A stretch of 58,659 nt of DNA, filler included, from Dugesia japonica (Eukaryota): assembly GCA_001938525.1 (NCBI GenBank). It is 5 parts of 5 records of this genome, joined end to end, with 100 filler letters (N's around TTAATTAATTAA, not from the genome) between each part and the next. Parts side by side here need not be neighbours in the genome. Positions count along the whole stretch, not along the records: positions 1 to 12,964 come from MQRL01580610.1; 4 more parts are not named here. The stretch is one strand, 5' to 3'. How positions within the stretch are numbered: the first letter of the stretch is position 1; every line of letters begins with the position of its first letter. The position numbers were made by a program, and so were the translations under genes. Shown piece by piece: positions 1,430-50,124 of this stretch. The notes under the pieces were generated by a model. That model saw only the letters and a program-made list of their open reading frames with translations, was not told the DNA's origin and did not search any database.

Positions 1430-2043
1430 ATATACTGTGATACCATTATGGTTGAATATATCTGTTCTTTCATATAATCATCTGGATATTGTTGTGTAAA
1501 GTCGAGAAATAGATATCCATGTAGTGTTTCTGTTGCATCTTAAAATGATTCAATGAGAAATTGTCTGTTATTTAGATATACTTGTCTTGCTAGAAAATCA
1601 AAAACAGGTTGATTTCTAGAATTTTTGAATAGAACTAAATATTATACGTTTAAATTGCGTGTTCTATGACTACTTCCTTGATGAAATAGATTTTGTGTAA
1701 TAAATATAACAGTCACATTACGATGTCTCGATATCTTTGTGAATAAAGTATTGAAATCTTTTTCTTTATTTGCCTCAAGATACAGATCATCAACAGCAAT
1801 AACATCACCTGGTCTTAATCTTTTACTCCAATTAGATTCAAAGTCATTTATGATTTTCATTTTAGTATTACAAAATTCACATTTAGTCATACCATGCTCC
1901 TCATCTGCACCTCTATGCCAATATATGTTTTTAAATTTAGAGTTGAATAACTTTGATTTCAATAATTGACATAGAAACAAAGTTTTCCCGCTACAACTAG
2001 GTACAACAATTAGATAGACTGCGTCATTTCTTAAAGTTTCCAT
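1430..2043 (-). pseudogene. Polinton genome-packaging ATPase (A32/FtsK-HerA family)
   Basis: Walker A-like VVPSCSGKT, Walker B VIAVDDL, TKISRHRNVTVIFITQNLF. Homology continues past the stop at 1642 (YLVLFKNSRN...LARQVY...HGYLFLDFTQ...RTDIF). Confidence 0.9.
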
Positions 2044-2104
2044 CTTGTTTACTTTAATTTACTCATAATTTAGTATATTGTTTATAATTAAAAGTTAAAA
2101 AACA

Positions 2105-3484
2105 TTAAAAATCACGTGACTATGAATTTTTATTAATAAATGCAATAGGTATGTAACTCAGATGCAACACACATACACTGAAAATCATGCGCTTATGAAT
2201 TTTAGACTCCGCTCATACCCTGTAAAATATATAGACTCCCTCGTCCCTTGCAAAATGTTTCTTACATNNNNNNNNNNNNNNNNNNNNNNNNNNNNNNNNN
2301 NNNNNNNNNNNNNNNNNNNNNNNNNNNNNNNNNNNNNNNNNNNNNNNNNNNNNNNNNNNNNNNNNNNNNNNNNNNNNNNNNNNNNNNNNNNNNNNNNNNA
2401 ATTTCTAATAAAACGATTTCTCCCCATTGCAATGAAAAATTTCCAACCAAAGTATTGTTTTTAAATTTCCCGCCAAAAAAAATTTTTCTTGAATTTCCTG
2501 CCAAAAATAATTTATTTTAAATTTCACGCTAAAATAGTTTTCATAAATTTCAAGAATCCTCTCTTCCCTGTTCGAAAATGTTACAAAACAACACTTCTCT
2601 GATCAAAATACCGAAAACAATAACCAAAAATACATCAAATACTCAAAAATAACATTACTTTCATTAAATTCATCAAATTAAGCAATATACAGCATTTTTA
2701 ACCAAATTAAATATTTTAAAAGTTTATGACGTCATAACCAACTAACAGAAAAATTTCAAATAAATCTTTTAAAATCCGATAATTAATTCTCTTTCCACAC
2801 ATACCAACCTCCACCTCNNNNNNNNNNNNNNNNNNNNNNNNNNNNNNNNNNNNNNNNNNNNNNNNNNNNNNNNNNNNNNNNNNNNNNNNNNNGACAACCA
2901 ACATCTTCACCATCCCATTACCTCTCCAACAAGCCATCAACCAACAAATTCCATAAACAACATAAAAACCTACAACACCAACAAAAACCACTCACGATAA
3001 CTCATACGACTGTGCCCGTGTNCCNCTANCCTAGTANCANAAACCANCCATCCAAACTCATAAGTCNTTTAGACAATATATAGACCAAATTTTTGTCCAA
3101 CAACAAATAAATCTTCAAAATCCCTAAAATATTCTTTCCAAGATCTCCAGCTACTACTCCTCGTTTTTTCCTGTCTTTTACACACACACACACAACCGCG
3201 CACACAGACAAAACTTGACCTACTTTTTAAAAACTATCTTAGCAACCCAAACACACACAAAATTTAAAATTTAAAAATACACACACACTTTCAGGATCGA
3301 AAAAACTGATCAGATCAAACAAAAATTTGATCACAAAAATCATGGTTAGAAAACGGAGCTCAAGCGTAATGTGTTTTCGAGCCTTCCCTTGGGGGTAGAG
3401 AGCTCGCAATAACTGCTTAAAAATAATTGTGCTCGAATGTTGACTCATTGCCAAATTGTGCCCGTGTGCTACTATCTATCTACT
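2105..3484 (-). repeat. Polinton terminal inverted repeat (left copy), reverse complement of ~8925-10170
   Basis: Colinear reverse-complement matches, e.g. 2161-2255 vs 9998-10093 and 3078-3170 vs 9195-9285; visibly diverged. Confidence 0.88.
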
Positions 3485-3510
3485 CAATACGAACTTTATT
3501 TTTATGGAAA

Positions 3511-3988
3511 TGTTACTGATTTTGCATTAAAATTGTTAAATTATAAACAGGTGATATTTAGTTTATTGGTTAATGTAAATTTTTTATTATAGTGTGTGTG
3601 ATAATCTACTGATCAGAATTAGTATAAATACTAATCTGTTTCAGTGATTGTTCAGACAACTGTGATCAGTTAGAATCCAACCTCTCTGGGCGCCATCTAT
3701 GACTCGATTTAAATTTTGCTTATATTGTTCATAAGGTTTAATAAATGTACTATATTGTTTTATACATAAAAAATAAATTATTGTAGAAGGTATATTTTTC
3801 ATTTATATATAAGGAAAAGTAGACACATATTACATTATTTATAAATTTCATTTAACAATATATATTATATAATATTGTAGCAACATAGCAAGGGTAAAAT
3901 CAACAACCGTTAAAATTGTAAACATATTTTCTCAATATTTTCAAACTAATGAACCATAAATTATTTTGGTGAGTAGAAATACCCAACA
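3511..3988 (+). repeat. 5' LTR of gag-env retroelement
   Basis: TGTT...AACA termini, TATAAATA at 3623, AATAAA at 3740, and a PBS a few nucleotides downstream. Confidence 0.6.
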
Positions 3989-3992
3989 AATT

Positions 3993-4010
3993 TGGTGCCG
4001 CGCACCGGGA
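3993..4010 (+). promoter_or_regulatory. tRNA primer-binding site TGGTGCCGCGCACCGGGA (tRNA-Phe-like)
   Basis: 18-nt GC-rich motif starting with TGG just after the LTR-terminal CA; resembles the known Phe PBS TGGTGCCGAAACCCGGGA. Confidence 0.65.
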
Positions 4011-4272
4011 CTCAAAATAATAAAAATTATTAAAAACAATTTAAAATCAAGCGGGTGTTCAGACCTTTATTAAAATATACCGTGTATTGATCAGTTTGAT
4101 ATCAGATATTGAATAAAATCCTACTATGATCTCTTATCAAAGTTGATTAATTTGATTATCTTAAGTTTGATATTAGATTTGGATTGAATTCCTGCCGCAA
4201 TATCTTACCAAAGTTCTGATAATATAAAATCAGTTACCTTAAAATAATAAAGTTAAAAGTGATTCAGAGTTT

Positions 4273-4460
4273 ACCGGTTGAAACGAAACCAACGAAATTG
4301 TTTAATTAGTGTACCGGTTGACACGAAACCGAAGAAATTGTTTGATTAGTGTAAAGGTTGAAAAAGAACCAAAGAGAAATTGTCTAATTAATGTGCCGGT
4401 TGAAATGAAACCGAATAAGATATTTGTTAGTATTCCAGTTGAAAGAAACTGAGGGAATAA
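4273..4460 (+). repeat. ~40-bp tandem repeat x5 in retroelement leader
   Basis: Units like ACCGGTTGAAACGAAACC(G/A)A..AAATTGTTTAATTAGTGT at 4273, 4313, 4353, ~4395 and ~4435. Confidence 0.85.
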
Positions 4461-4510
4461 TCATTAAAGAGAATATAGTATACAAATTGCGAAATAGAGA
4501 TATCAAAAAA

Positions 4511-5620
4511 ATGGCGGCGGCAAATATGGAAAATATGCCATTTCAAAATCTACCAATTAATGATCAAATAGGTGGTGGATTTGGATACCGCGGTACATTG
4601 CATGTATTACCCATACAATTTTATGCAGGAAAACTTGAAGAATTTGACGAATACTTTTGCGCCACAGCTTGTGGATGGACAGAGGCAGAATTAATTCAAC
4701 GATTGCCACTTTATCTGTAAGAATATGCATTAAAATGTTATAAGAATATGGATTTCAAACCTGATAAATGGAATGAGCTAATAATAAAAGTGAGAAAAAA
4801 GATAATAGTCCCAAGTGAGATAGAGAGAATTTGCATACAAAAATTTAGAGATAGAACACAATTAGCAAATGAAACGGTGGGCGAGTATATATATATGAAT
4901 TAACAAGGTTAGCAGAATAAGCTTTTGGAAAAAAAAATAGTACTGGTCAAATCATAGAATTCCAATTTTTGAATGGGACACATAAACATATTTGAGAAGC
5001 TCTGAAATCTGCAGAGTATAAAGATTTAGAGGAACTAACAGCAAAAGCAACGCGAGTTAAAGCGAACATTAAACATAAAGAGAAAACCAATTAAATATAT
5101 ACAATTGAAGCGAGTAACGAAGAATCTTCATGGAATGAGATAAGGAAAGCATATCAAAATCGTCAAAATAGTAGAAAAGATCAAGATATGAAATTTAAAA
5201 CGGACTATTACCAAAGAAATGATAAAAATTATAACAGAAACTCATGTCCTGGGAGAAATTACAACAATTATAATAGAAATTCAAGTCCCGGAAGGAGCTA
5301 TAACAACTATAATCGAAACTCAAGTCCTGGAAGAAATTATAACAATTTTAATAGAAATTCCAGCCCAGGTAGAAATTATGACATGAATGCAAGTTCAGCA
5401 AGAAGATATAATCGAGATAATAGAGGATATAGTCCAAAAAGATATGATAATAGAAGAAGTCTGGCCCATAGTTTGTAAATGAAGGTAGGAATAAATTGAA
5501 TAACAGAGGGCAAATAAAGTGTTATAACTGTAATAAATATGGACATATAGCAAGAGGATGTAGAAGCAAACCATATGATTCTAGAGGTAATCTAAAAAAG
5601 ATGTATCATTCAGTCCAGAA
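4511..5620 (+). pseudogene. gag: Ty3/gypsy-type Gag (capsid + SP-repeat region + CCHC zinc knuckle), with stops/frameshifts
   Basis: ATACGWTEAELIQRLPLYL*EYALKCY, RTQLANETVGEY, and CYNCNKYGHIARGC (CX2CX4HX4C) at 5520-5561. Confidence 0.82.
5222..5420 (+). repeat. 39-bp coding tandem repeat (NYNNYNRNSSPGR) in gag
   Basis: ORF 5188-5478 shows about 4 units of 13 aa plus a degenerate fifth, with synonymous differences between units. Confidence 0.85.
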
Positions 5621-5671
5621 ATAAGAGAACCTAACGCTATTAAAATAATTAATAATGAAACTTATGAAAAT

Positions 5672-6190
5672 ATGATAATCGAATTAGAAGGTATGAAAAT
5701 ACACTATCAGCGAATGATGGAACGACAACAAGAAAGAGAGGAATATGAAATAAATGTGTGTGAACCAATAGATGTGAATTTAGATGCAATCGATGAAAAA
5801 AAACAAGAAATATTAATTGAAAACGTTAGATTAGAGATAACAAAAGAAAGAACTAACGAACTTATATTGCTGCAGTATTTAAAAGATATTAACGAGTATC
5901 CTATCAATTTTCAAAAAATAAAACCAATAATAATCATACTAGCAAAACATCGAAATAAGATAGAGATATCAGAAAATTTTGATACGATAAATGAAATCTT
6001 CCAAAAGTATAGTGATCACTCAAAGAAAAATGAAAGTTTGAAAGAACATCTTAATATCAAAGTAACGGCAGGGCAAGATGATTGCTCTCTGACAGCACTA
6101 GAATTAACAATTCTTGCGTGTACAAAAACGAATAAGTTATATAAAATAGTGAAAATAGATTGGCCAGTACTATTAAAAATGAAGACGTAA
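5672..6190 (+). CDS. Unknown charged/helical ORF between gag and env (its 3' end may overlap the env start)
   Basis: 172-aa open frame with no recognisable pol motifs. Confidence 0.3.
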   Translation: MIIELEGMKIHYQRMMERQQEREEYEINVCEPIDVNLDAIDEKKQEILIENVRLEITKERTNELILLQYLKDINEYPINFQKIKPIIIILAKHRNKIEISENFDTINEIFQKYSDHSKKNESLKEHLNIKVTAGQDDCSLTALELTILACTKTNKLYKIVKIDWPVLLKMKT

Positions 6191-7904
6191 TACAGTTCTA
6201 TAATGCAGAATTAAATCAGAGTAAAACATTTATGCAATATGGAATTATTCCAGGTAACGTCAATATCATAAAAGTAACAATAATGAAACATACAACACAA
6301 GCATTAAAAAAGAAGATATTGTAGGATGATCCACTGCAAGTGGATATTGTGGAGGAGAAAGTTATAAAATATGGGGACAAGTGGAATCTGACATCTTAGT
6401 TAGAAGGCAATATCATGTTGAACTAAAGAAAATAAAAGAATATTCGACGCAGCTATGGAAAAAATGATGACATACCAATTTTGTAGATTATAAGATACAA
6501 GTTGTGATACCGGAGAATCAATGATCACATATAAAGTAAATCCATTTGAATGTACACTTAGAAAATTAAGAACAGTGACAATGAGAGTAGTTAGTGAAAC
6601 TTAACCAACTGATAAGCCACAGAATATCCGAGATAAAAAAACGAAGACAACAGTAATTAATGAAAAGGCAACACCAATTGTGTTTTATAATCAATTCAAC
6701 ACAAGAAGCATTAAGACTTATTGAAAAAGGAACGAATACCAAGTGTGGCGTGGCGGTAAAGGTAACCAATTACAATGGTTTATATTTATCAACAACGGAA
6801 ATTAAATACGCTAAACTAGAGGTAGATAAATTAGATATAAGAGTAGCTACATATTTTAATAATAAAATTGACTTTCCATATCATGAAATATTGAGACAAG
6901 TAAATAGAATATATCAGGAAACCATTATGAGAAATTGTAAAACCGACCGAGAATTGTTGAGAACAAAAATGGCAATGGTAGTCACAAATCTTGATTTCGT
7001 GGCACTGCTCTTAATTGAAGAAAGAGGAAGATTTGGAAGAACAGTGGGACAAACTATTGTAAGTTTTAAATGCAAACCAGTAGCAGTTACGCTTATAGAT
7101 CATGAAAAATATACTAATGAATTACCAGTAATTTATAAGGGAGAGAAAGTATTTTTGCTTCCAATAACAAGAAATTTTACAGATAAGCCCTATTAACCGA
7201 AAGTGATTGAAAAATGCAATAAAATTCTTGATACAATGTACAAATTAACTGAAGACGTATGGGTAACAGTATCAGATAGAAAAACAGCACCAACTTTACT
7301 TATGATAGAAATGATAGGACTCAGTAAAATAACCGAAATGGAAAGGATTGATAATATGGAAAATCGTGGTATTTAAATAATTAACAATATAGAGAAAGTA
7401 AGAACACATATGCTTTTTCCAATTCAAAGAGATAAAATAATATCAGTAATGGTTGATAAAGAAGTAAGAGGGAGTAATGGAGATGATGTAAATTTTAAAT
7501 CACTATTGCATGCAGATCATTTTAAAAGGGCAATGCGTAATGTCATAGATAGATTATTGGAGGGAATGCAATGGTTTTGCAACATATTTTCATGTATTCT
7601 ATTTGGGTGGTATGTATTAACATTTCTAAAATTGGTGGGTCATCAAATACTTTCTTTAAGACAATTACATGTAGTTTTCGGTTACACATGGAAACTAGGA
7701 GCATGTTTCTTTCCAATCATTGGAAAACATATGATTGTGCAAAATCATAGTGAAAAAATAAAAGATCTAGGAAAACATCGAGGTATATATACAGTACACA
7801 TAGACGATGAGCAAGAAAAAACTAAATTAACTAATGATAAATCATCAGACACCGAATATAAACCATATGAACAAGAAAACATTGAATTAAAACATATAAA
7901 ATAG
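6100..7904 (+). pseudogene. env: Envelope glycoprotein, Chuviridae/Jingchuvirales G-like (gB-like class III fusion), fragmented
   Basis: GYCGGESYKIWGQVESDILVRRQYHVEL, FCRL*DTSCDTGESMITY, RNCKTDRELLRTKMAM...GRFGRTVGQTIVSFKCKPVAV...NELPVIYKGEKVFLLPITR, a TM segment (FCNIFSCILFGWYVLTFL), then LHVVFGYTWKLGA. This matches the motif order of chuvirus-type glycoproteins. Confidence 0.75.
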
Positions 7905-8294
7905 ATGATTCAACACAATATAAATATCAAAAAAATATTCAATATCAGTCATAGATTTAGATAANNNNNNNNNNNNNNNNNNNNNNNNNNNNNNNNNNNN
8001 NNNNNNNNNNNNNNNNNNNNNNNNNNNNNNNNNNNNNNNNNNNNNNNNNNNTAATTGGACTTATCGATTAGCTTGCGTAGTTTTAACTAGGCAAAGATCG
8101 ATTTACAGTATGTGCATCTCTGGTAGCAGTGTTTCTATCCGTTCACATCCGGACATAAATTGAACACCACTACGATTGACAATAATTGACTAGACTCAGA
8201 TCCGCAAAATGATAAGGAATTCAAACGCAGCTGTTACTTATTCAATACATGATATTTTATATTATTTAACACATATTAGTCATCTTTGGCACAT

Positions 8295-8680
8295 TTTCTG
8301 ACCATATTAATGAAACCTTAAAACTTCATAGACCATTTAACAATGGAACCTTTAAATATCATTGAACATATAATTATGAAACCTTTAAACATCATAGACC
8401 TTTTAAAATGGAACCTTTTAAAAACATAGACCATTAAATAATGGGACAATATAAAAATAGAAACTTTAAATATCATAAACCATATTATTATGGAACCTTT
8501 AAATAATATAGACCATTTAATAATGGAACTTTTTTTACATTATAGACCATTTAATAATAGAACCTTTTAAAATCATAGACCATATAATTATGGAACCTTT
8601 AAACATCATAGACCATCAATAATGGGACCTTTTGAAATCATAGACCGTTAAATAATGGGACCATATAAAAATTAAACCTT
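8295..8680 (+). repeat. ~33-bp minisatellite (CATAGACCATTTAATAATGGAACCTTTAAATAT), about 11 degenerate copies
   Basis: CATAGACC-like motif recurs at 8327, 8360, 8393 and onward. Confidence 0.85.
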
Positions 8681-8711
8681 TGAGCTAATTTAAATTCAAT
8701 TAATATTTAAT

Positions 8712-8825
8712 TAGCATTAAATTAACATTAAATTAACATAAATTAACATTAAATTAACATCAAATTAACATTAAATTAACATTAAATTNNNNNNNNNNTA
8801 ACATTAAATTAACATTAAATTAAAT
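8712..8825 (+). repeat. 11-bp tandem repeat (ATTAAATTAAC)n
   Basis: Directly visible; spans a small gap. Confidence 0.85.
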
Positions 8826-8924
8826 TTTAAAAAAACATTTGATTTAAAATTTAACATATAAAGAAAATAATAAACACACTATTTTTTTTTTCATAATAAA
8901 CTTGCCATAATTGCAATTATGGTA

Positions 8925-10170
8925 AGTAATGGGATAGCAGCGCATAGGCACAATTTTTTTAAGGAGTTATCGCGCACCTTCTTGGGGGAGGCTTGGAAAC
9001 ACATTACGCTTGAGATGCGTTTTTTGACAAGATTTTTATGCTCGTTTTTTTAAAGATTTTTGATCAGTTTTTTTTATATTGGGTGTGTCTGTGTATTTTT
9101 AAATGTTAAATTTTGTGTGTGTTTGGGTTTCTAAGGTGGTTTTTAAAAAGTAGGTCAAGTTGTGTTTGTGTGTGTGGTTGTGTGTAAGAGTGGAAAAAAC
9201 GAGATGGAGGAGCTGGAGATCTTGGAAATAATTTTTTTGTAGTTTGAAAGATTTGGTTGGGGTTGGACAAAAATTTGGTCTATATATTGTCTAAAGGACT
9301 TATGAGTTTGGATGGATGGGTTTTGCTACAAGGGTAGTAGCGCACGGACACAGTCGTATGAGTTATAGTGGGTTGTTTTTAGGGAGGCTGTAGGTTTGTA
9401 TGTGGTTGATGTAATTTGTTGTTTGATGGGTTGTTGGAAAGGTAATGTGATGGGAGAGGGTAGTTGTCGAATGTGCTTTGATTTTTTATTTTAAGGGTTT
9501 GAATTTGATTGGTATATTTTGAAAGTAGTATAAATGTGTTAAAAGTTTTTTTCGCGAGGTGGAGGTTAGTATGCGTTGAAAGAGAATTAATTATCAAATT
9601 TTATAAGATTTATTTGAAATTTTTCTGTCGGTGGTTATGACGTCATAATTTTTTGAAATCTTTATTTTGGTTTACAATGCTTTATTTTGCTTAAATTGAT
9701 GAAGTTAATGAAAATAATAGTATTTGTGAGTATTTGATGTATTTTTGGTTATTTTTTCGGTATTTTTGAACAGGGAAGTGTTGTTTTTAATATTTTCGAA
9801 CGGGGAAGAGGGGATTCTTGAAATTTTTGAAAACTTTTTACGCGAGAAATTCAAAGAACTATTTTTAGAGGGAAATTCAAAAAAAATATATTGGTTGGAA
9901 ATTTAAAATTTTTCATTTCAATGGGGGGAAGTCTTTTTAATATAATTAAATTTAATTAAATTAATTTATTTATGTAAGAGATGCGGCAGTCTTGATATTT
10001 TGCAAGGGACGAAGGAGTCTCTATATTTTACATGGTATGAGCGGAGTTCTAAAATTCATAAGCGCGTGATTTTCAGTGTATGTTGGTTGCATCTGAGTTG
10101 CATCTGAGCTGCGTGCCTATTGCATTAATTTAAAATATCAATACAAATTCCCATGCACGTGATTTTAATG
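8925..10170 (+). repeat. Polinton terminal inverted repeat (right copy)
   Basis: Reverse complement of 2105-3484. Confidence 0.88.
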
Positions 10171-11048
10171 TATGTGTGTTGCATCTGAGTTGCAACTGAG
10201 TTGCATATTTATTGCATTTATTTTAAAAAATTCAAAATGGCGGCTATGTTGAGTTTTAAAAACTTATTTTTTGGTGAGAAATTTATTAAAAATTCTCAGA
10301 CTTGTGATTTTCAGAGTGAGTGTATGGCATGTGAGTTGCAACTGAATCACACACCTATTTCATTTATTAATAAAAAATTCCCAGACACGTGTTTTTTAGT
10401 GTATGTGTGTTGCAGCTGTAATGCTTCTGAGTTGCATTTATGAAAATATATCTATCAAAAAACTTCNNNNNNNNNNNNNNNNNNNNNNNNNNNNNNNNNN
10501 NNNNNNNNNNNNNNNNGTCTTTTTAATATAATTAAATTTAATTAAATTAATTTATTTATGTAAGAGATGCGGCAGTCTTGATATTTTGCACGGGACGAAG
10601 GATTCTCTATATTTTACATGGTATGAGCGGAGTCTAAAATTCATAAGCGCGTGATTTTCAGTGTATGTTGGTTGCATCTGAGTTGCATCTGAGCTGCGTA
10701 CCTATTGCATTAATTTAAAATATCAATACAAATTCCTAGGCATGGGATTTTTAATGTATGTGTGTTGCATCTGAGTTGCAACTAAGTTGCATATTTATTG
10801 CATTTATTTTAAAAAATTCAAAATGGTGGCTATGTTGAGTTTTAAAAACTTATTTTTTGGTGAGAAATTTATTAAAAAGTCTCAGACTTGTGATTTTCAG
10901 AGTGAGTGTGGCATGTGAGTTGCAACTGAGTCGCACACCTATTGCATTTATTAATAAAAAATTCCCAGACACGTGATTTTTAGTGTATGTGTGTTGCAGC
11001 TGTAATGCTTCTGAGTTGCATTTATGAAAAAATCTATCAAAAAACTTC
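9931..11048 (+). repeat. ~535-bp direct duplication (9931-10466 / 10517-11048) rich in GTTGCATCTGAGTTGCA subrepeats
   Basis: Two near-identical copies with scattered substitutions either side of an N gap. Confidence 0.85.
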
Positions 11049-11169
11049 AAAGAGGGGAGTCTCTGTGATATTTACATTGTAAAAATTTAACTATTAAAAA
11101 TAACCAAAAAAGGGAGTCTATGTGATATTTACATAATAAAATATAACTTTTTTTAAAATATTCAAATAA

Positions 11170-11726
11170 AAAATTCAATCTGTTCGCTTCATTTGAATAT
11201 GAACATTGACATCAGGAATAAGGTATTTCGTTTGATCCATGAAATCAAGTTGTAATGAACCACATAGTGATAATTGTTTTGATTTTGCAATAGACTTTTT
11301 TCTATCTGCTTCTGATCCATATCCTATTGCTGCAANACATATATTCTTACTGTCACCATTTTAATTTNTTATAGTTTCAATAATTGCTTTATGAAGAAAA
11401 GATCCATTTTCAACTTCAATTTTGAAATTATTAAACGAAAGAATTACATCCTTAAAAAGCGTATGCAACATAAAGTTAATAGGAACCGAATCATCCGTAT
11501 CAGTCAAATCTCTGCCATCCTTATCAACTAACTTTACTTTAATATACAATAAAGTATCATTCAAATCCAAATATTCTGTTTGAGATCCATTTTTAAAAAA
11601 CTCTACGTCACTTTGTGATTCAGAAATTGAATTCCTAGGAAAAACATCTTCGAATGTACCATTTTTAATTACAGATTGTTGAGATGGTCGATCAAAAATA
11701 CATAATTCAGTTTTACCGCAAATCAT
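11170..11726 (-). pseudogene. Polinton major capsid protein (double jelly-roll, hexon-like), N-terminal part only
   Basis: CGKTELCIFDRPSQQSVI...DVEFFKNGSQTEYLDLNDTLLYIKVKL...PINFMLHTLFKDV, then LCGSLQLDFMDQTKYLIPDV; matches the Maverick MCP N-terminus (C.KSELDLF..PP.Q). Confidence 0.88.
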
Positions 11727-11838
11727 TTTGCAAATATTGTTCCATGTCCTCTCATTCGTTTGTTTATATGTGATACATGAAATTTCTTTCGTTTTTTATT
11801 AGTTGGTTCTGTTTTGGGTTGATTTGTTAGCATATTAG

Positions 11839-12165
11839 TTATTTCTGAAGTATTTTATTAGTTATACTTTGCGGTAATATGCCTGCTACTTTTGGAATCA
11901 TGCTGGTAACTGCACTAGGTAAGGAAGAATTTACATTTATAAGCTCAGCTAATGCATTTGATTTCAATGTAGGTAGTATTTTTCCGTCATTAGCTAGTAC
12001 ATCCTGAGCTGTTTTCATACGAAAAGAACCAATACGTCTAAGAATAGGCAAAGAAAATCTTCCTATTGTTCGTTGCCACCCAGATTCATACTGTTTTTCA
12101 AGAAAGTAAGGTAATTTTCCACCTGCTTGACTAGTACTATACAATGATACAATATCAGGGTTCAT
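11839..12165 (-). CDS. Polinton small core/membrane-active ('cupiennin-like') protein
   Basis: YSTSQAGGKLPYF..QYESGW..IGRFSLPILRRIG, with a Q.GG motif and amphipathic helix; sits between minor and major capsid genes. Confidence 0.65.
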   Translation of the reverse strand: MNPDIVSLYSTSQAGGKLPYFLEKQYESGWQRTIGRFSLPILRRIGSFRMKTAQDVLANDGKILPTLKSNALAELINVNSSLPSAVTSMIPKVAGILPQSITNKILQK

Positions 12166-12790
12166 TGTTAATTTTTCTCAAATGTAACGTTAAATATCTT
12201 TTTGAATCTTCAGCAAAGTTGACTAGTTTTCCATTTTCATCACGTATATTAATTTCTATAATATTTATATATGACGGAAAAATAGGTAAATACATTGAAT
12301 GATCAACAATTATTTGTTTTATCTCATCACTCTCATGTTTTTCTATCCATACTGCATTCAATAAGGGAACATTACCATTTCAAACAGTTATAGGTTCAAC
12401 AATACTACAACAGATGAACATTTCATTATAACACTTTAACATTCTAGGTTTCTTATTACTTTTATATAGTAGTTGTTGATCATTAAACTGTATTCGAGTA
12501 TATTGCGATTCTTTTAATCCTAATGTTTTTTGTTAAGGTTTTATCGAATTTAACACTTTTAGTTCTATTTGCCAATGTAAATTTAAATATTTCATTTTGC
12601 TTTAATGAAAACGTTTTAAATAACTTTGGAAGGTGTTTCTTAAAATAGTCATTTAGTTGATTTAAATCCTTTATATACAGGTCAGATTCGAATTGAAAAG
12701 AATGTTTAGTTACAATCGGATAATAGTATTTAACTTTCATTTTTTCAATGGATTCGTCATTTTTAAAGTGTTAAAAGCCAAAAAAATGCT
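12155..12790 (-). pseudogene. Polinton minor capsid protein (penton, single jelly-roll), fragmented
   Basis: MFICCSIVEPITV*NGNVPLLNAV...MYLPIFPSYINIIEINIRDENGKLVNF...LTLHLRK matches the Maverick mCP C-terminal consensus. Confidence 0.8.
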
Positions 12791-17249: not shown

Positions 17250-18971
17250 ATTAGGTCTGCTAGTTTTGAAATTTTCAAAATAATAGCTAGGCATGACAAA
17301 TATTTCAGTGATGATGATTACATCAAAGAATCTTGGCTAGAATGTGCACCGTATTTTGAAGATTTTCAAAGTAAAGCGAATAAGAAATCTACCAATTAGT
17401 CGGAATACAGTAAGAGATAATAATTAACTTGAATTCAAATATTGAAAATGAAATAAAAGAAGATTTCAAGTTATCTTTTCTATTAGCCTGGACGAAAGTA
17501 CTGATGTGACATAGTCAGTTCGATTAGTCATTTTTGCTAGATATCTCAAAAACAACGAAATGCGCGAGTAATTAATAAAATTAGCAAATTGATCTGGAAC
17601 AACAATGGGTGCAGGAATTTGCCAAAACCTTGTGAATGAATTCAAAATTACAGACTTTGATCCACAACTACTGATGGTGCACCAAGTATACCTGGAAAAG
17701 ATATAAGTTGTATGAAATTGTTTACAAGACATGTTGGACACCAATTGGTAGCATTTCACTGTATAGTGCACCAAGAAGCCTTGTGTGCAAAATTCAGTTT
17801 AAAAGAACTTGAAAATGTTATGAAAATTAAAACAAAAATTACAAATTTCATTACTGCATGTGTTTTAAATAAGAGATTTGAGCTACTGTTAAATGAAGTT
17901 CAATCAGTTTATTATGGGTTATTAATGTACAATAGTGTTCGCTAGATTAGCAAAGGTCGCGTGCTGGAACGTTTTGTAGAATTCCTTGATCAAATTCAAA
18001 TGTTTATGGATGGCAACAAACTGAATTATTCGGAATTAACTGATGTTTACTGGCTCAGCTGCTTGATGTTATTTACAGATTTTACTTTACATATAAATGA
18101 ACTTAACACTAAGTTGCTAGGTTGTGGAAAAACCATTGATGAGGCTTTTGACATCATAACAACATTTGAAAAGAAGTTGAAAATTTTCAAACGTGATTTG
18201 GACAAACAAAAGTTTCCATATTTTCCAAGAATTAAAAAATTTTATACTGAAATAAAAATCAATGAAACAGTTGTCAAAAAGTACAGCATTTGTTATTTTT
18301 AGAGATAGACGACTCAACCCTCGAACAGTTTCCAGTGTGTTTTGTGAAGTTTAGAAAGTTTGAAGACACAACAAAATTTATAAAATATCCGGATAAAGTC
18401 AAATTTGAAAATGACAATGTTTGACTAGACGGAAGTACAAGCATTTCAAATGCATGTAGCTACGGTCCAGGGAAATTTGGAATTACAAATTGGTTGACTT
18501 ACGAATGCGACTAGAAATAATTGAACATGATAGCTGCAATGGATTAAAACCGCTATCGGTCAAAAATGAGGTGCTCAGAGTCTGGAATGAATTGTCTGAG
18601 ACTTTCAACTGTATGAAAAAAGTATCAGTGGAAATTTTATCGATTTTCTCATCTAGTTACTCGTGCAAATCTTTGTATTCAACGACGAATTTCATAAAAT
18701 CAGACATCAGAAACAGTTTGAGTGATGACTTGAGTGCGTAGCTTTGAAGATTACCAAATATTTTCCGATATAAAACTTTTATAATCTGCCCTACAACAGC
18801 GAAAATCATATTCACTTCCATTTAAATTACATTACTTTTAATTGGATTTAATAAATTTAATTAATGTTTAATTGAAGCTTTAACCAAAAAAATTACTTGA
18901 CACTCGAAAATGGTTTTGTTTTTAAATTAAAATATATTGGTACGTGATTTAAAAAAGGTTTTCCAGCCCTG
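17250..18971 (+). mobile_element. hAT (Charlie/SPIN/Buster, GTF2IRD2-like) transposon remnant
   Basis: FSISLDESTDV, FHCIVHQEALCAK, YNSVR*ISKGRVLERF, and dimerisation motif FSSSYSCKSLYS...IKSDIRNSLSD; right terminus ...TTCCAGCCCTG at 18971. Confidence 0.9.
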
Positions 18972-24515: not shown

Positions 24516-26250
24516 ATGGACTTTTCGGAAAGTTTATCTGAAACTAACATAGCGACCAACTCTTCAATGGACCTCATTCGAGAAGCCATACACCCTGTAA
24601 TTTACCAGCATGGTGACGACATTAAACAGTTTATCAGTGGTTGCAGCAAATACTTCAAATGTATTAGTGTAAAGAAAAAGGATTAAAACCTCTTGGTGGT
24701 TAGCTTAATTGATCGAGAATTAAGAGAAGCATATGAATGCCAAGATGAATTACTAGATTTTGAGGACCAACTGAGGAAAGCGTTCCACAAATAGACTACT
24801 CTAATATAAAACTTGGAGGAAGCTTTAAAATTTAAGAGAACGGATGAACACGTTTATGTGTACAAAAAAAAGATTTTAGCATTGGTCGATAAAATCTTTG
24901 CATACAAACTAGATAAAAAAGAGATGACACCAAAATAATTAATATTAAATAGTTGCCGCGATAAAAGGATGCATATCAAGATTAAAGGAGGCAAACTAGC
25001 CAACTTAGAAGAGATATTTGAGACAATAAAAACAAATGACGAACTAAAGGAGGACCTGAAAGAAACAGACAATATAAATACGGTGGAAAGTTACAGCAAT
25101 GCAGTAAAAAGAGGCATTGTGAAAGAGCGTTTCTCATGAGTTAACCGAACTCAAAGTGAAGCTAAAAAGAAATTACATGTTGGTCATGTCAGAAGATAGG
25201 TCATATTAACAGAAATGTATCAGAAAAGAAAAGAACGTGTTATGCATGCGGATCAGGGAAACATATAAGAAAAAATTGTGACAAAATTAAATGTCCAAGA
25301 TGTGGAAAAATGGACATCATACAAAACAATGTTATACTAATTTGGAGAAAAGAAGTGTGTGGACTAATGCGAAGACAGAAGAATAATGGAAAAAGAAACG
25401 AAGCAGCAATATACAGCCGAAGAGAGGAAACAAACAGAAGATATGACGATAATAACAGATTCCCAAAACAAAGTGGGAGGANATCAGCCAATAATGGATA
25501 AAGGAAAAGAGACGGCAATAGATATGTAAACTCAATGGTAGAGGAAGATGAGGAGTACATAACGAGAGGAGATAATATTTATTATTACGACGAGGAGACA
25601 AACAAATATAGAGAAGAGACCCAAAACAGGCAAGATTCATTCAAAGTCGAGATGATTGGAATAATGAACTGAAAAACAATCCAGATCGCGATATAAATAT
25701 GTATAGTAAAGGTAGTTTAATTAATAGTATAAAATATGAAAGTAAAGAGGAAAGAGTAAACAGAAAAGTATATGGATTTTTAAAAAAAGATTATAGATAT
25801 ATTTATAATACAGGTATTAAGATAATAAAAGAAACGAGAAATGATGGTAACAAAATAATGGTATTAGAAGAGAATGAAAAAGTACAAATAAATTATGATA
25901 GAATACAAGATAGGCCTAGTCAAGAAGGAAGAAATCAATGAAGATATATGGACTACCTTTTGAACACAGATGCAAAAATAAACGTGATGAGCCTAAATAT
26001 TTTTAGAAGTCTGACAAATGTGGAGCTGATAGGAACTGATGACGTGTAAAAAGAGTCGATGGAGGAAACACCTACAAAAAGAAAATTCCAAGTAAGATAT
26101 GAAGTATTGATAAAACTAGAACACAAAATAATGAAAGATACACTGGCCCATACTAGATCACGGAGAAAGTTCATGAAAGAAGATATCGTATACGAAATGC
26201 AAATGGAAAAGAGCTAGATAGCAATGGATGTAGAGTGATGTAAGGATTAA
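24516..26250 (+). mobile_element. Ty3/gypsy gag (three zinc knuckles) + protease remnant
   Basis: CWSCQKIGHINRN, CYACGSGKHIRKNC, CPRCGK at ~25180-25320; YLLNTDAKINVMSL at ~25955. Confidence 0.75.
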
Positions 26251-34559: not shown

Positions 34560-35260
34560 TTTAACCATCGTTCTCTATGTATCTACCTACCGTATATCAC
34601 TTCTGCTGGACTTATGCCCAAGGTCTTCTGGGTTGTTGCATTTAGAGTATATTCGATATCTGGTATTAAATCTGCCTAATTTTTATTCTTTTTATCTTTT
34701 AATGTTGTATTGATGTAATCCCTGATCGTTCTGAATTGACGTTCTACTATTCCGTTTGTATTATGATGATATGGACTGGAAAAGTAAATTGTTGTATTCA
34801 TTGAATCTGTCATTTCTTTGAAGGCTTTCGATTCGAACATTTTCCCAGAATCTACAAGTATCTCATTTGGAGCACCAAATCTAAGTATCCATTTATCAAT
34901 AATCGTTTTCTTTATTGATTCCTCATCTTCTTTAACTAGGGCTGTTATGCAAATGTATCTGCTAAATTTATCTATTATGGCGCATATATCTTTTTCTTTA
35001 TACATTTTCTTGGAAAGGCCCACAGATATCCAACAAAAACTCTCAAATAGTTCATTAGCCAATAATTTTAAAATTTCCTGCTTGGTTCTAATTGTTATTA
35101 CTTTGTTCATTTGGCATGCTGTACATTCTTTAATTACTTTTGGTACAGTTTATCTTAACTCTTCCATTTCATATTCGTTTTTCAAATAATTGATGAATTT
35201 TTCCGTGCCTGCGTGCATCAATAATTTATGGATTTCTTTTACCAGTTGAATTTTCTTTTC
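34560..35260 (-). pseudogene. pol: Integrase domain
   Basis: HAG...ECTAC zinc finger, IIDKFSRY, VDSGKMFES, NGIVER. Confidence 0.88.
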
Positions 35261-35479
35261 TGATGGGATCCATATTTTGCCGTCTTTTGTTTTTATTAAT
35301 CGAAACTTTTTACATGTTCTAGTTTTGATATTATTCTTTATCTGTTCAATTTCTTCTACGTTACTTTGCCATATATAGGTATCTGAACCTGATATACCAT
35401 TAATTGTTCTTGTCTTTATTTTTCATTCCTTTGGATTCTCATGATCTATTAAGCATTGTACACACGCACCACAATTCAT

Positions 35480-36100
35480 AATAGACAGCATATCTGCATT
35501 CGTGTGTTTCAAACCTTGTCTAAATTCCAATACCATACCTAGGTTACTAAGAAAATTCATCTATGTCTGATATTGCGGAGTAATTGGCTTGTTTGTTTTT
35601 TTCATAAATGCTATCGCCATGTGATCTGTTCTCACCAAAAATCTTTCTCCATACAGATAATGTTTAAAATGGTTACAAAAATAGTAAATGGCCAATATTT
35701 CTTTTCTTGTTATACAATTTCCCTTTTCATGAGCTGACATTACATGTGACCCATATGCAATGACTTGTTCTACACCTCTTCCATCTATTTGCGATAAAAC
35801 TGCTTCGATGGCATCAAAGCTCGCATCTGTATCTAGTACAAATATCTTTTTGATATCGGGAAAACTCAATATCGGTGCTTTTGTTAATGCCTCTTTCATC
35901 TCATTAAAAGATTTATCACAACTTTCCGACCACACAAGATTTGTATTATTACTTCCACATAGCTCTTCAAAGCTTCTAGCTTTCTTTGAGTAATTATTGA
36001 TAAACCGTCTATAGTAATTATATATTCCCAAAATGTTTCTCAAGTTCTTTACACATTTAGGTCTTCCGAAATATTTTATCGCTTCAATTTTTATTGGATC
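35480..36100 (-). pseudogene. pol: RNase H domain
   Basis: DTDAS...EILAI...VRTDH. Confidence 0.9.
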
Positions 36101-36109
36101 GGTTCAAAC

Positions 36110-36857
36110 TCAATTCTTGTCTATGACATATCCTAAAGATTTGACTTCTGCTCGCAATAAATGACATTTTCCAGGAATAATTCTCAATCCTGATTCTTGA
36201 ATTCTTTTAAAAACTTGGTCTAAAATTCTACAGTGCTGCTCTAGATTTTCTGAAAATATCACTATATCATCCATGTATACCATCGTTCCTCTCAATTTTC
36301 ATAATAATTTTGTCATTAATTATTTTAAACGTTCCAGGTGCTGCAGCTATACCAAAATGCGTTCTTGTGAAACGATACCGTCCAATTTTCGCAGAAAATG
36401 TTGTTTTCTGTTGTGAATCTTTATGTAACGGAAGTTGATAATATGCATTACCCAAATCAATAGTACTAAAATATCTTGAACCACTCAAATTGTCTAGTAT
36501 TTCCTCAACATTGGGCACGGGAAATGCCTATCTTTCTGTGATTGTATTCAGTTTTCTAAAATTAAGACATAATCGAACGTCTTTCCTTTCTTTTTTCCAA
36601 ACACATATTAACGGAGTGTTCCATTGAGAATTACACTTTCTAATAATGCCATTGTCAAACAAATTCTTCATGGCTTCATTGATCTTATTCTCTAAATGCA
36701 TTGGTTGTCTCCATGGTTTTGTATACATTGGTTCTCCATTTGTGATTATTTGATGTTCTGCCATAGTTGTTCTGCCGATATCCCGGTTGTCTCCCATGAA
36801 TATTCCTTTATGAATCCTTATAACTTCCTCTAAATTCTCATTTGGCTTGTTAATCAA
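36110..36857 (-). pseudogene. pol: Reverse transcriptase domain (frameshifted)
   Basis: ORFs 36528-36857, 36267-36518 and 36110-36295, with YMDD. Confidence 0.92.
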
Positions 36858-38429
36858 TATATTTTATTGCTCTCTATACTCTCTCTTCATCCACTGTATT
36901 ACGTCCATACTTTGCTTCTATATTAGAAAGATAAATTTCATTATCCACACATTTAGTCTCTCTTAGCAGTTGGAATTCAAACTGTTTCTGTAATTCTATT
37001 CCTCCAATTAGATCTGGTTGTATCTGTTTCACCACAATGAATTTAACTGTTTCGCTTCTATTCTCGAATTTTACTTCTACCTGTATCTTAAATTGTTTTC
37101 CCTTTTTAATATATTGACTTCTCTCAATCTTTCCAATATTATCAAGCTCATCACATTAACTCTTACACCAGTGTCTAACAAGCAATCAACTTTTACGCCT
37201 TGTATTTCCCCCATTATAGTTGGTCTACCTTGCATTTTGCCATAACTTATTTCTTGTCGCTATATCTCTTCTATCGTCAGAATTTCACAGTCATCTTCTC
37301 CATTTATATCATTGACAATCTCCGGCTGGCTTCTAGTCAATTCTTTTTTACGAACTTGAAAACCTTTTCTTTTACATAATTGCAATCATCTACTCGTTTA
37401 TCTTTGCTTCTTTTATTTATATAATTATTTATACTACTTTTACTATAATTAACAATACTGCGATTTTTTGGGATACTTAATTCAACGTTCCGACAATCTC
37501 GACTTCGGTCGGAGCTTGGCCATTTGGGTATTCATCTTGATAATTATTTGACCCGTCATNNNNNNNNNNNNNNNNNNNNNNNNNNNNNNNNNNNNNNNNN
37601 NNNNNNNNNGTATTCATCTTGATAATTATTTGACCCGTCATTACAATAGTGACCTTTGTCTTCTCTACCTGCACAATCTTTCCAATTTTCCTCAATCGAA
37701 TTTACGTGACTTCCATTCATCTTTGTATAATTATTCGTATTATTTGAATAATATCTTTGTTTGCCATTTCCAAATTCTTTTCTGGTCTGTTCACTTTTGT
37801 TTGATAACTAAACTTTCTGTTCATATTTGTGTAACAGTCCTTTGCGTAATGGCCTGTCTTGTTACATCTTACGCAACTAACTTCGGTACAGTCTCTTCTG
37901 AAATATTTTTCAGATCCACAAGCAAAGCACTTTCTTTTTCTTTCTTGACAATTTCTGTTTGCATGACCTATTTTGTTAAAGGTCCAGCACGTGATTTTTA
38001 GTCTTTCGTTGTTTCTGTTCTGTTGCATTCCTTCATTACGATTCGTGTTGAACTTTCTTTGTTCTGGGCTTCTGCAAACGGCATCTCTGTAGTTACGAAC
38101 TACATTTATTCCTTTAGTTTTTACTTCAACTTGTATGTCTTCCCATTTTTCTTTGCTTTAAATATATTATCTACTTTTTCTATTTTTCCTGATCTGATTT
38201 TATGTTTAATCCTTCGTTGCAACTATTCATTATTATCTCTTTTGTTAAGTCCTCTTTGTTCCATTTTTTTAAAAGCTTGTGTATATTTGTAGTTCAATAC
38301 ATTTTATTTTGTTTTATATCGAAGGTTCTAGTTATTTATATTAGTATAACAACTAAAAACAATATTTTTACAATAAGATAGTCGAGATAGAAAATTATTT
38401 ATTGAGTTTTTTCTTTTCTTTCAATAAAT

Positions 38430-47487: not shown

Positions 47488-49547
47488 CCATAAAGCGCGT
47501 AAGATAAATTTCATTTTAAGATAAATTCGCGCGATTTCCTACAACGCAGAATGTATCTCCCGCAATGTACGGGAGTCTAATGTAATATTAAATTATGCAA
47601 GTCGTTGTAGGAAAATAAAGATTGAAAATGATCATTAGTTTTAGTTTTCATTATTGTTAAAATTCAATTTAAATAACGATCGTTAATAAAAAGTAGATAC
47701 TATGTGAAAATATTACTACATGAACGTTAGAAACCCCAATAACGTGGGCATTGTCATAGGTCTTATAAAATTAAAAAGGTGACAAAACGTTGTTCTACTA
47801 TATGAAAAAAATATTATAGATTTCTTATTTTTAAATTATTTAAAAATTCAAAACAAATAACTTTCATTAATTTTTACTTAAAAATTTATGTAATAAAAAT
47901 ACCAAAATAATTGGTTAAAAAAATAAAAAAAATGATTAAAATTGATTTTCTGAATTTTTATTTTTACAAATATAATTGTTACTTATTATTTCTTAATTTA
48001 ACTTTCTATAAATATATCGAAAATTCAACTATGGAATAATCACAAATCAAACGTTAAGTCTAATAGAAATTTTATAATAATAATATTAATGGATGACCTA
48101 AAAAATAACCAAATTTTGCGTAGAAAAATATTTCCGTTAATTTGTCATTTTTCGTAAATATTGTCTATTTTATGTTAAGAATATATAGAATTTTATTTTC
48201 TACAAACATGATATAAAAAAAATTTATTCAAAAATTTAAGTGTTTACTAATGAAATTAATTGTATCAAATAAAAATGTAATTTTCGGTATATATCAATTT
48301 TTTGTAGTAGTTTCCCTCAGTTATTAAAATAATCTGGTGTTTCTAATAATTTTCTATATTATAGTTTTGAGGAAATAAAATCCATTAAATATAAGCAGGA
48401 TTATTAAAATGAAATCCCTAACTCTAATGCCGATTCCGAACTATGTCTAATCAATGAATTGACAGAAATTAATTACTGTAAATCTGACTTGTCTGTAGAG
48501 TAAATACAAACAAAATAGACTCACAATCTCAAACAAGTATTTGTGTCCAGGTGATTAGGATATCTAAAAATTATATTGCAATTAGTTAAAACAAAAGTTG
48601 CCTAAAATTATAGATATTTTATTCTTCCACATTGTATTTTGAAAAAAAATATTCGCATATTAATTTTTGAGAAATTACAGCAAAAATTACTCATTTGTTG
48701 AAATTTCTTTTCTGAGCTCTTAATAGGCAAGTAAAAATAACAGAATAGTCATGATACACGAAATAGCAACAAATATAATCAGTAAATAGACTGAGACAAC
48801 AGTTTCATCGTCATCAAAGCAGCAAGACCATTAATCGAATTGGTTACTGTTCGAGATTCCATTCATTAGTGTGTTACAAAGTGTGTTTGGTTGTGTGTTT
48901 TTTATGAAGACCAACTAGACATTTACAAATTATAGATACAAACATACCACCATATACACTAGAGCTTTCTGAAATGCACACAGTTCTAATGAGAAAGGTG
49001 ATTCCTATGAGAGCCTAAACTACTGTAGCAACCTAATCTATCTTCTGAAATGTTTACGCCAACGTACATATTCCCCCTATTGATGAAATTGTACTGTAAT
49101 TTTCATTTACCTCCACTCCCCGATCCAATTAAACACACCAACTTCAACACACAAACAACTTTATGAGTCATAAATTTCTGCCCTTTATTGTAATTGAATG
49201 GGAAAATATTGGGTAGAATGAAAAATAGTCCATTTTACCCACAACATTGGCTAACTAATATTCTTTAACGACAGTCTTCATTGAAATTGAATGTTAATAG
49301 AAATAATTTGGAAAGAAAACAATATTATTTATATTATTTTTCTAGCGTTGCTCAGATATTAATACGATAATGAACAAGAATTTGATAGTGTATGCTGAAC
49401 ACTGAATTTTAATATTCTATCAACACATTAAACCAAACTTACTAATGAAAGTTGACACATTTATCACTTTTTGGTATATTTGAAAAGTTGGTGAAATAAA
49501 AAGAATTTATTTATTTAATAATAAGTTAAATAAAATATTATAAATAC

Positions 49548-50124
49548 CAGAATTTTTAAGTAAAATTCGTCTGTGCTTCGCTACAATAGGTTGCAAAATC
49601 GAATAGCCTTCATTCGTATAATTACCATCTTTGTGAATATCGTAGAAATCAGCGTTTAATTTTTTCGATGATTTTAATAAATCAAAGCTTTTATTTAAAT
49701 CAAATTTTTCTGTTAAAAAATGCTGCATTTCCATTCCCAGAGCAGAACCTCCTATGCTCGGAACGGAACAAAAACTTTGCTGGCGATTAAAATAAAATAT
49801 TTCTACATCTTGAAATCTAATTCGGTGTTTATTTCTTTGAGTTTCTTTCTGACTGTTCATAGATTTTAAAATGCCCTTCTGAATAATCTCTGATGAGTAA
49901 ATTTCACAATTACTTTCGCATATGGAACCACTTAAAATAGATGAAGAGTCTTGGTCGAAAGCCGAACTAATTGAAACTTGTTCACAAGAATTCATTGGGG
50001 AATCTATCAGTTCTTCACAGTTATGATTAGAATTGTTTATATACAATGTTTTGACATTAATTTCGGTTATGTCATCGTCCAACTTTAGTCTCTTAGGATT
50101 GCTACAGAAATTTTCGATGGACAT
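49548..50124 (-). CDS. CSRNP: Cysteine/serine-rich nuclear protein (CSRNP/AXUD1 family), first coding exon
   Basis: RIRFQDVEIFYFNRQQSFCSVPSIGGSALGMEMQH and LQPIVAKHRRILLKNSG match the CSRNP N-terminal domain; Ser-rich N-terminus; acceptor TTTTATTCAG| at 50136 and donor G|GTATTT at 49547. Confidence 0.88.

What the first reader, a model, noticed from the sequence alone, without database searches (positions are those of the whole stretch)
3511..7904. Gypsy-type LTR element with a chuvirus-like fusion glycoprotein and no pol
Seen: LTR (TGTT...AACA), PBS and a single-CCHC Ty3/gypsy-like gag, followed ~0.5 kb later by a Cys-patterned glycoprotein with a C-terminal TM (C..V.V.....NELPV...F..P.TR; LH..FG.TW). 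No protease, RT, RNase H or integrase motif lies between them. Known: chuvirus-type class III glycoproteins were captured as env by BEL/Pao retrotransposons in insects, and gB-like env occurs in nematode elements. Inference: this is an independent env capture by a Metaviridae lineage, possibly a non-autonomous gag+env family that makes enveloped particles and borrows Pol in trans.
Basis: partly seen in the sequence, partly recalled or inferred. Interest (0 to 1): 0.85.

Follow-up and report, generated by a model that had tools for sequence, protein, structure and literature searches.

The report
Decayed flatworm-type gag-env-pol retroelement, gap-truncated
This is a broken copy of a retrovirus-like element with a chuvirus-like envelope gene right behind gag, and its "missing" pol gene most likely lies in the assembly gap just after the envelope, because its closest relatives and the published flatworm elements of this kind put pol there, so it is ordinary.

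Summary
The LTR-like start, primer site, one-knuckle gag and chuvirus/gB-type glycoprotein are real (Pfam PF24664, E 2.7e-44), and no pol lies between gag and env. But that is the normal layout of this lineage. In 9 of the 10 best env relatives a protease follows env in the same reading frame, and in 5 of those 10 clusters RT and RNase H follow too. Published flatworm, nematode and bryozoan Ty3/gypsy errantiviruses are GAG-ENV-POL (PMC13524379; Burro, PMC6431247). The env pieces are closest, by hand count, to Schmidtea Smed_errantivirus_3 (66 of 115 residues). The window's sequence runs into an N gap 60 nt after env, before the point where 10 of 11 relatives place the protease motif, and no 3' LTR is present. 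So "no pol" cannot be read from this locus. The copy is dead: stops, frameshifts, and no detectable signal peptide or N-terminal part of env. Verdict: a decayed member of a known kind. A pol-less family is not excluded but unlikely. The scan noted a gypsy element with this env type before on other DNA (e1-9887218).

The parts
3511..3988 (+). Putative 5' LTR, 478 nt, TGTT...AACA, two AATAAA hexamers (3740, 3772); no second copy in the window
   Evidence: Sequence; blastn of 3401-8100 against the window finds no second LTR
3993..4010 (+). Primer-binding-site candidate; complementary to the last 8 nt, and 9 of the last 12 nt, of the tRNA-His(GUG) end listed in the eLife supplement
   Evidence: compared by hand; host tRNA not available, no tRNA gene in the window
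4268..4444 (+). Imperfect short direct repeats in the 5' leader
   Evidence: Self-blastn, 75% over 98 nt; copy-number joints in other copies
4532..5103 (+). gag capsid region, broken (stops at 4718, 4918, 4993, 5092; frame change near 4890)
   Evidence: tblastn to P0005 41-130, E 5e-9; gag profile of 3 relatives, iE 4.7e-8 and 4.7e-4; stops
5104..5590 (+). Asn/Arg-rich nucleocapsid region with three 39-nt-spaced repeats (5222-5377) and one CCHC knuckle (5514-5564); stop at 5476
5591..6291 (+). gag-env linker, homologous to the linker of polyprotein P0009; ends in a weak, ubiquitin-like-looking segment split by a frameshift near 6180
   Evidence: blastp E 4e-7 to P0009 384-512; linker profile of 4 relatives gives two weak collinear hits, 5870-6082 and 6187-6288 (iE 0.003 and 0.009 locally; 0.14 and 0.37 over six frames of the window)
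6312..7904 (+). Broken gB-type/chuvirus-like env in three frames (6312-6434, 6425-6694, 6684-7904); stops at 6327, 6491, 6602, 7194, 7374; leader and N-terminal part not detected; hydrophobic stretch 7572-7640
   Evidence: Pfam PF24664; profile; hydropathy; fold search; stops
7905..7964 (+). Last 60 nt before the gap; no polypurine tract, no LTR; also present in other copies
   Evidence: no purine run of 10 or more in 7700-7964; bin 7827-7960 covered in 3 of 3 contig runs
7965..8051 (.). 87-N scaffold gap, at or just before the position where relatives start the protease

Best explanation
This is a decayed copy, cut off by an assembly gap, of what is likely a Ty3/gypsy GAG-ENV-POL errantivirus with a chuvirus-like gB-type envelope, likely from a planarian flatworm, whose pol would lie downstream of env rather than being absent from the family. 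In the working family (inferred from relatives) one long polyprotein would run gag - linker with a ubiquitin-like domain - membrane-anchored env - protease - RT - RNase H - integrase. The protease would cut it up, Gag would package RNA primed at a tRNA-His-like site, and Env would be the class III fusogen. This copy itself is inactive (shown): it has stops and frameshifts in gag and env, and env's leader is not detected. Whether its own pol and 3' LTR sit in an undersized gap or were deleted from this copy cannot be told.
For: Among 1.84 billion representatives the ten best env hits (29-35% identity, E 9e-66 to 4e-49) are mostly long polyproteins. 9 of 10 have a protease after env (P0005 only at E 0.0018, under the Pfam cut-off). 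RT and RNase H follow env in 3 of 10 directly and in 2 more through cluster mates P0152 and P0155. None of 15 proteins scanned has a pol domain before env. Gag or knuckle matches precede env in the same frame in P0009, P0010 and, weakly, P0039 and P0006. The window's gag and linker match the same proteins. The window stops 92 codons after an env anchor; the first protease motif lies 86-326 residues after it in the 11 of 13 relatives with a motif, beyond 92 in 10 of 11. In a quick tree of 56 rows the window env groups with the 15 polyprotein-group envs, apart from 40 stand-alone glycoproteins (SH-aLRT 98). PMC13524379 reports GAG-ENV-POL with HSV/gB env in Platyhelminthes and six Schmidtea families. 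By hand, 66 of 115 residues in three env stretches are identical to Smed_errantivirus_3. PMC6431247 describes env in frame between gag and pol, with a Ubi2/SUMO-like motif before it, in planarian Burro.
Against: No pol of this very family was seen: no genome is held, the closest full-length relatives are only 29-35% identical in env, and two word-based protein searches and three locus scans gave no close relative. The gap is nominally only 87 nt, too short for pol plus an LTR, so it must be undersized or this copy 3'-truncated. One relative (P0011) would place the protease motif inside the sequenced part (7947), where none is seen. 1 of the top 10 (P0008) ends without a protease. The host is inferred from env similarity and low GC, not shown. 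The Smed comparison is a hand count on 115 positions.
Confidence: 0.85

Rival explanations
1. A non-autonomous, pol-less family (LTR-gag-linker-env-LTR) that spread using Pol from a related autonomous element.
For: No pol is seen in the locus; the gap is nominally 87 nt; the gag-linker-env region is multicopy (9,130-11,663 contigs laid per run, all 30 bins covered in 3 of 3 contig runs).
Against: No 3' LTR or polypurine tract before or after the gap. None of the 15 best-supported joints shown (153 not shown) leads from behind env back to the LTR (weak, since the laid stretch ended at 7960). Relatives encode pol in the same frame behind env. Without its own protease the gag-env polyprotein would need processing in trans (inference). 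The window's gag-pol element shares no LTR.
Confidence: 0.08
2. A conventional gag-pol-env element that lost pol and the start of env in one internal deletion at about 6290-6312.
For: There is a real discontinuity there: the linker abuts mid-env and the env leader is not detected. Insect gB-type errantiviruses and mosquito BEL/Pao elements carry this env type.
Against: The env clade it belongs to has pol after env, never before. The sequence before the junction matches the gag-env linker of those same polyproteins, so the deletion is explained by loss of linker end and env start alone.
Confidence: 0.05
3. A BEL/Pao (Anakin-like) element or a captured chuvirus glycoprotein fragment inside an unrelated retrotransposon.
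For: The env matches the chuvirus glycoprotein family; a named chuvirus glycoprotein is among the hits (P0024, 24%).
Against: Stand-alone glycoproteins score far lower (E 1e-22 or weaker, 20-28% identity) and lie on the other side of the tree. No Pao-type family was reported for any of 15 relatives scanned. Gag has one knuckle and matches gypsy-type gags.
Confidence: 0.02

Closest known systems
Schmidtea mediterranea Smed_errantivirus_3 and the other Platyhelminthes GAG-ENV-POL errantiviruses with HSV/gB-type ENV (Chary and Hayashi, eLife 2026, PMC13524379)
   Same: env directly behind gag; gB/chuvirus-type env; 66 of 115 residues identical to Smed_errantivirus_3 in three domain I-II stretches (hand count; 24 of 39 in the first stretch, against 11 of 39 for Smed_errantivirus_1 and _2)
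   Different: About 57% identity means a sister family or another species, not the same element. This copy is broken, lacks the env start, and its pol is not visible. It shows an LTR and primer-site candidate, whereas the table lists none for the six Smed elements.
Burro / GYPSM1 giant gypsy-like elements of planarians (as described in Arkhipova and Yushenova 2019, PMC6431247)
   Same: Mononegavirus-like env in frame between gag and pol; a Ubi2/SUMO-like motif between gag and env (weak match here); decaying fragments known from a planarian genome
   Different: Burro has an internal region up to 25 kb, two or three CCHC knuckles, and BIR, MATH, ankyrin and BCL2 modules. Here gag start to env is about 1.8 kb with one knuckle and no such modules detected.
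Unnamed metagenome polyproteins P0002, P0006, P0152, P0155 (env-PR-RT-RH-IN) and P0005, P0009, P0010 (gag-env-PR)
   Same: Same env clade, same gag and linker types, same order
   Different: 29-35% env identity; intact frames; hosts unknown
Mosquito BEL/Pao elements with chuvirus glycoprotein (Dezordi et al. 2020, PMC7642597; search listing and start of abstract only)
   Same: Same broad glycoprotein family (PF24664)
   Different: Different retrotransposon superfamily; the window env groups with gypsy polyprotein envs, not with stand-alone glycoproteins

Membership tests
Ty3/gypsy (Metaviridae) | Two LTRs with a tRNA primer site behind the 5' LTR | tested here: inconclusive
   TG...CA 478-nt candidate plus TGG site present; 3' LTR absent from the window, sequence ends in a gap
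Ty3/gypsy (Metaviridae) | gag of gypsy type with CCHC knuckle | tested here: met
   zf-CCHC; match to gags of P0005, P0010, P0039, of which P0010 hits Retrotrans_gag at E 1.7e-4
Ty3/gypsy (Metaviridae) | pol in the order PR-RT-RH-IN and RT grouping with Ty3/gypsy | not testable with these tools
   No pol in this copy; the order is met in relatives P0002, P0006, P0152, P0155, P0032, P0039; no RT tree was built
GAG-ENV-POL errantiviruses with HSV/gB-type ENV | env is a gB-like class III fusogen | tested here: met
   PF24664 E 2.7e-44; predicted model (pLDDT 66, pTM 0.27) hits chuvirus glycoproteins at E 6e-13; all listed PDB hits are herpesvirus gB but only at E 0.02 or weaker
GAG-ENV-POL errantiviruses with HSV/gB-type ENV | env follows gag with no pol between | tested here: met
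GAG-ENV-POL errantiviruses with HSV/gB-type ENV | pol follows env | not testable with these tools
   Gap at 7965-8051; no genome held; met in 9 of 10 top relatives for protease
GAG-ENV-POL errantiviruses with HSV/gB-type ENV | Ectodomain flanked by a signal or TM segment and a C-terminal TM; intact ORFs | tested here: not met
   C-terminal hydrophobic stretch present; leader and first 147 profile positions not detected; stops and frameshifts. It is a relic, not an intact member.
Burro/GYPSM1 | Giant internal region with 2-3 knuckles and BIR/MATH/BCL2/ankyrin modules | tested here: not met
   One knuckle, about 0.75 kb between knuckle and env, no such Pfam hit in the linker
Burro/GYPSM1 | Ubi2/SUMO-like motif between gag and env | tested here: inconclusive
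   Weak collinear hits to a linker profile of 4 relatives; no Pfam ubiquitin hit; the ubiquitin-like label is by eye
BEL/Pao with chuvirus glycoprotein | Pao-type gag and protease domains | tested here: not met
   No Pao family among the hits of the window pieces or of 15 relatives
Non-autonomous pol-less LTR element | Several copies with both LTRs and the same pol-less interior | not testable with these tools
   No genome; laid contigs are short and no listed piece spans the stretch

The most novel reading that the evidence does not exclude
A multicopy, pol-less derivative of a planarian GAG-ENV-POL errantivirus (gag, ubiquitin-like linker, env, then straight into the 3' LTR) that is mobilised by the autonomous family's Pol: a defective-interfering-like satellite of an invertebrate endogenous retrovirus.
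Probability: 0.08. Interest if true: 0.5.

Novelty: new member of a known kind. Interest (0 to 1): 0.12.

Why it matters
Little as it stands: it adds one decayed, gap-truncated copy of a published kind of element, probably a sister family of Smed_errantivirus_3. It is a useful caution: in flatworms, nematodes and bryozoans gag next to env is the normal order, so pol must be sought downstream. If long reads showed a true pol-less family, it would be a natural helper-dependent system for studying whether gB-type errantivirus Env works in a regenerating animal.

Tried and rejected
No genome is held, so genome-wide LTR and junction searches could not be run. Word-based protein searches with env found nothing, at near lengths (0 of 2612 candidates) and at longer lengths (0 of 2709). 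Locus scans: viral contigs, 0 of 6 pattern matches confirmed; metagenomes, 1 locus from 174 matches, L001, a short broken env at 31% with no protease-sized ORF evident; GTDB genomes, 1 of 96, L002, a chance match in a bacterial contig. Alignment A2 had no stretch conserved enough for a scan. PDB sequence search gave one chance hit, gyrase, E 0.32. The ESM Atlas search with the linker gave only sub-0.9 bacterial hits. No RNA holder was listed by the run index. The careful tree did not finish; the quick tree has no bootstrap, uses 40 of 81 stand-alone-sized hits, and my 'polyprotein' label includes P0008 and P0013, for which no pol is shown. First idea that 6040-6300 is the env N-terminus was rejected: it matches the linker profile, not the env N-terminal profile. 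The gag-pol element at 34.6-38.2 kb was rejected as a helper: no shared LTR, and its pol is 25-36% identical to the relatives' pol. A search for pol-less gag+env elements in print (non-autonomous, LTR retrotransposon, lacking pol, env, gag) gave one unrelated fungal paper. Sacco et al. 2022 on nematode elements was not found and is known only through its citation in PMC13524379.
Full report
What is there. The region starts with a 478-nt TGTT...AACA segment (3511-3988) and, 4 nt later, a TGG primer-site candidate. Its first 8 nt, and 9 of 12, pair with the tRNA-His(GUG) end listed in the supplement of PMC13524379 (compared by hand). A broken gag follows: the capsid part matches polyprotein P0005 (E 5e-9) and a three-sequence gag profile, and one CCHC knuckle lies at 5514-5564. 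After a 0.75-kb linker comes a glycoprotein in three frames. The last frame, read with X at its two inner stops, matches Pfam Monjiviricetes_fusion at E 2.7e-44. Its model is of modest quality (mean pLDDT 66, pTM 0.27). It matches chuvirus glycoproteins in the viral library (best E 6e-13; 31 hits at E 0.001 or better). In the PDB every listed hit is herpesvirus gB, none better than E 0.02.

The element's end is not seen. Sixty bases after the apparent env stop the sequence enters an 87-N gap (7965-8051). No second LTR occurs in the window (blastn; shared 14-mers are AT-rich chance matches), and no purine tract of 10 or more lies before or after the gap. So either the gap is larger than stated or this copy lost its 3' part. 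Absence of pol downstream cannot be concluded.

Relatives put pol behind env. phmmer over 1.84 billion representatives gave 477 hits at E 0.001 or better. Of the top ten (29-35% identity), 9 carry an aspartic protease after env (P0005 only at E 0.0018). P0002, P0006 and P0011 go on to RT and RNase H, and so do P0152 and P0155, the cluster mates of P0003 and P0004. P0008 ends without a protease. In none of the 15 proteins scanned does a pol domain precede env. Measured from a shared env anchor, the first protease motif lies 86-326 residues downstream in 11 of 13 relatives (two had no regex match). The window stops 92 codons after the anchor, short of the motif in 10 of 11. In a quick IQ-TREE of 56 rows (window, 15 polyprotein-group envs, 40 of 81 stand-alone-sized glycoproteins; no bootstrap) the window env sits with the polyprotein group at SH-aLRT 98. 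The window's linker also matches the gag-env linker of P0009 (E 4e-7 among the upstream parts of 13 relatives).

It is in print. Chary and Hayashi (PMC13524379; I read the abstract, part 1 of 2 of sections 5 and 6, sections 14 and 22, passages, and rows of supplements 1, 2, 4 and 5) report that errantiviruses of Nematoda, Bryozoa and Platyhelminthes carry only HSV/gB-type env and are arranged GAG-ENV-POL. They say this glycoprotein resembles Chuviridae env and lies next to gypsy pol in 114 arthropod elements as well. They list six Schmidtea mediterranea families with 45, 215, 3, 8, 1 and 1 copies. Against their domain I-II sequences the window's pieces match Smed_errantivirus_3 at 24 of 39, 25 of 47 and 17 of 29 positions by hand count; the first stretch gives 11 of 39 with Smed_errantivirus_1 and _2. 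Arkhipova and Yushenova (PMC6431247; passages) had already described, in planarian Burro/GYPSM1, a mononegavirus-like env in frame between gag and pol, preceded by Ubi2/SUMO-like and BCL2-like motifs. Two relatives here show weak Bcl-2 hits before env (P0008 E 0.001, P0007 E 0.2), and four share a linker segment that looks ubiquitin-like by eye; the window matches it weakly and in order. Dezordi et al. 2020 and 2023 were seen only as search listings. A planarian host is an inference from this similarity and from GC of 18-37% per kb; the one host gene tested, a CSRNP gene, matched only an unnamed protein at 89%.

State of this copy. There are ten stops inside the homologous stretches besides the apparent env end, and the stretches change frame seven times. 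A profile of the env N-terminus from 13 relatives matches only from position 148 of 322, at 6312. No frame of 5591-6330 has a convincing hydrophobic leader in the coding frames (best 0.76 and 0.98, against 1.28-2.19 in four relatives). The env start was probably deleted near 6290-6312 (inferred). Contigs of three runs lay over all 30 bins (9,554, 11,663 and 9,130 records), mostly 80-95% alike. So this is an old copy of a multicopy family. At several breaks nearly all laid contigs read differently, so those breaks are this copy's own, and an indel close to the apparent env stop makes that stop unreliable as the true end of the frame. No listed piece spans the stretch, and 30,742 pieces were not shown, so the data neither show nor exclude the family's pol.

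How it likely works. Shown: layout, env family, decay, gap. Inferred from relatives and the two papers: an autonomous family with one gag-linker-env-pol polyprotein, self-processed, with Env threaded into the membrane by an internal leader. Whether any gB-type errantivirus Env is fusogenic in flatworms was not tested here. Verdict: new, broken member of a known kind; confidence 0.85; pol-less family 0.08; interest 0.12. An earlier scan note (e1-9887218) reached the same 'already reported' verdict for a gypsy element with this env type in another genome; I had found the paper before seeing it.

Noticed in passing
window 2100-3432 and 8948-10760: The LTR element sits inside a large imperfect inverted repeat (about 79-82% over several hundred bases), with 33-nt and 11-nt tandem arrays at 8310-8830 and a 585-nt duplication at 9931-11044: probably an older foldback or DNA-transposon end that served as the target.
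   Followed up: partly
window 1642-2058 (-), 11361-12177 (-): A weak Pox_A32 packaging ATPase hit (E 4.4e-5) and two ORFs that look by eye like Polinton/Maverick capsid-region pieces (recalled resemblance; no Pfam support), plus an integrase-like piece at 100-378.
   Followed up: partly
window 34586-38157 (-): A separate decayed Ty3/gypsy gag-pol element (RT, RNase H, integrase, knuckles) with no shared LTR; a related gag-like piece lies at 25166-25600 (+).
   Followed up: partly
window 49507-50124 (-): Host CSRNP-family exon (PF16019, E 3.9e-19), 89% identical to unnamed protein P0001.
   Followed up: partly
window 3589-7500, run X9: 457 RNA reads laid, only 21 at 95% or better, so they come from other copies. 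First mates lie mostly on + in the element and mostly on - in the flanking repeat. If the library is a usual stranded one the family's RNA would be largely antisense; direction was not assigned.
   Followed up: no
window 3915-4403: Summed contig depth is tens of times higher over the LTR end, primer site and leader than over the rest of the LTR, which may mean that many subfamilies share the leader but differ in U3. Depth is not a copy number.
   Followed up: no
proteins P0009, P0152, P0007, P0010: Relatives carry two to four protease-like domains in tandem between env and RT; P0152 also has ankyrin and C2H2 modules. P0006 is filed as a Flavobacteriaceae MAG protein although it is an animal-type retroelement polyprotein, likely bin contamination.
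   Followed up: no
window 17946-18302 (+), 51529-51864 (-): A piece that looks by eye like a hAT/SPIN-type transposase (no Pfam hit) and a GIY-YIG endonuclease piece (E 1.1e-5), likely Penelope-type.
   Followed up: no
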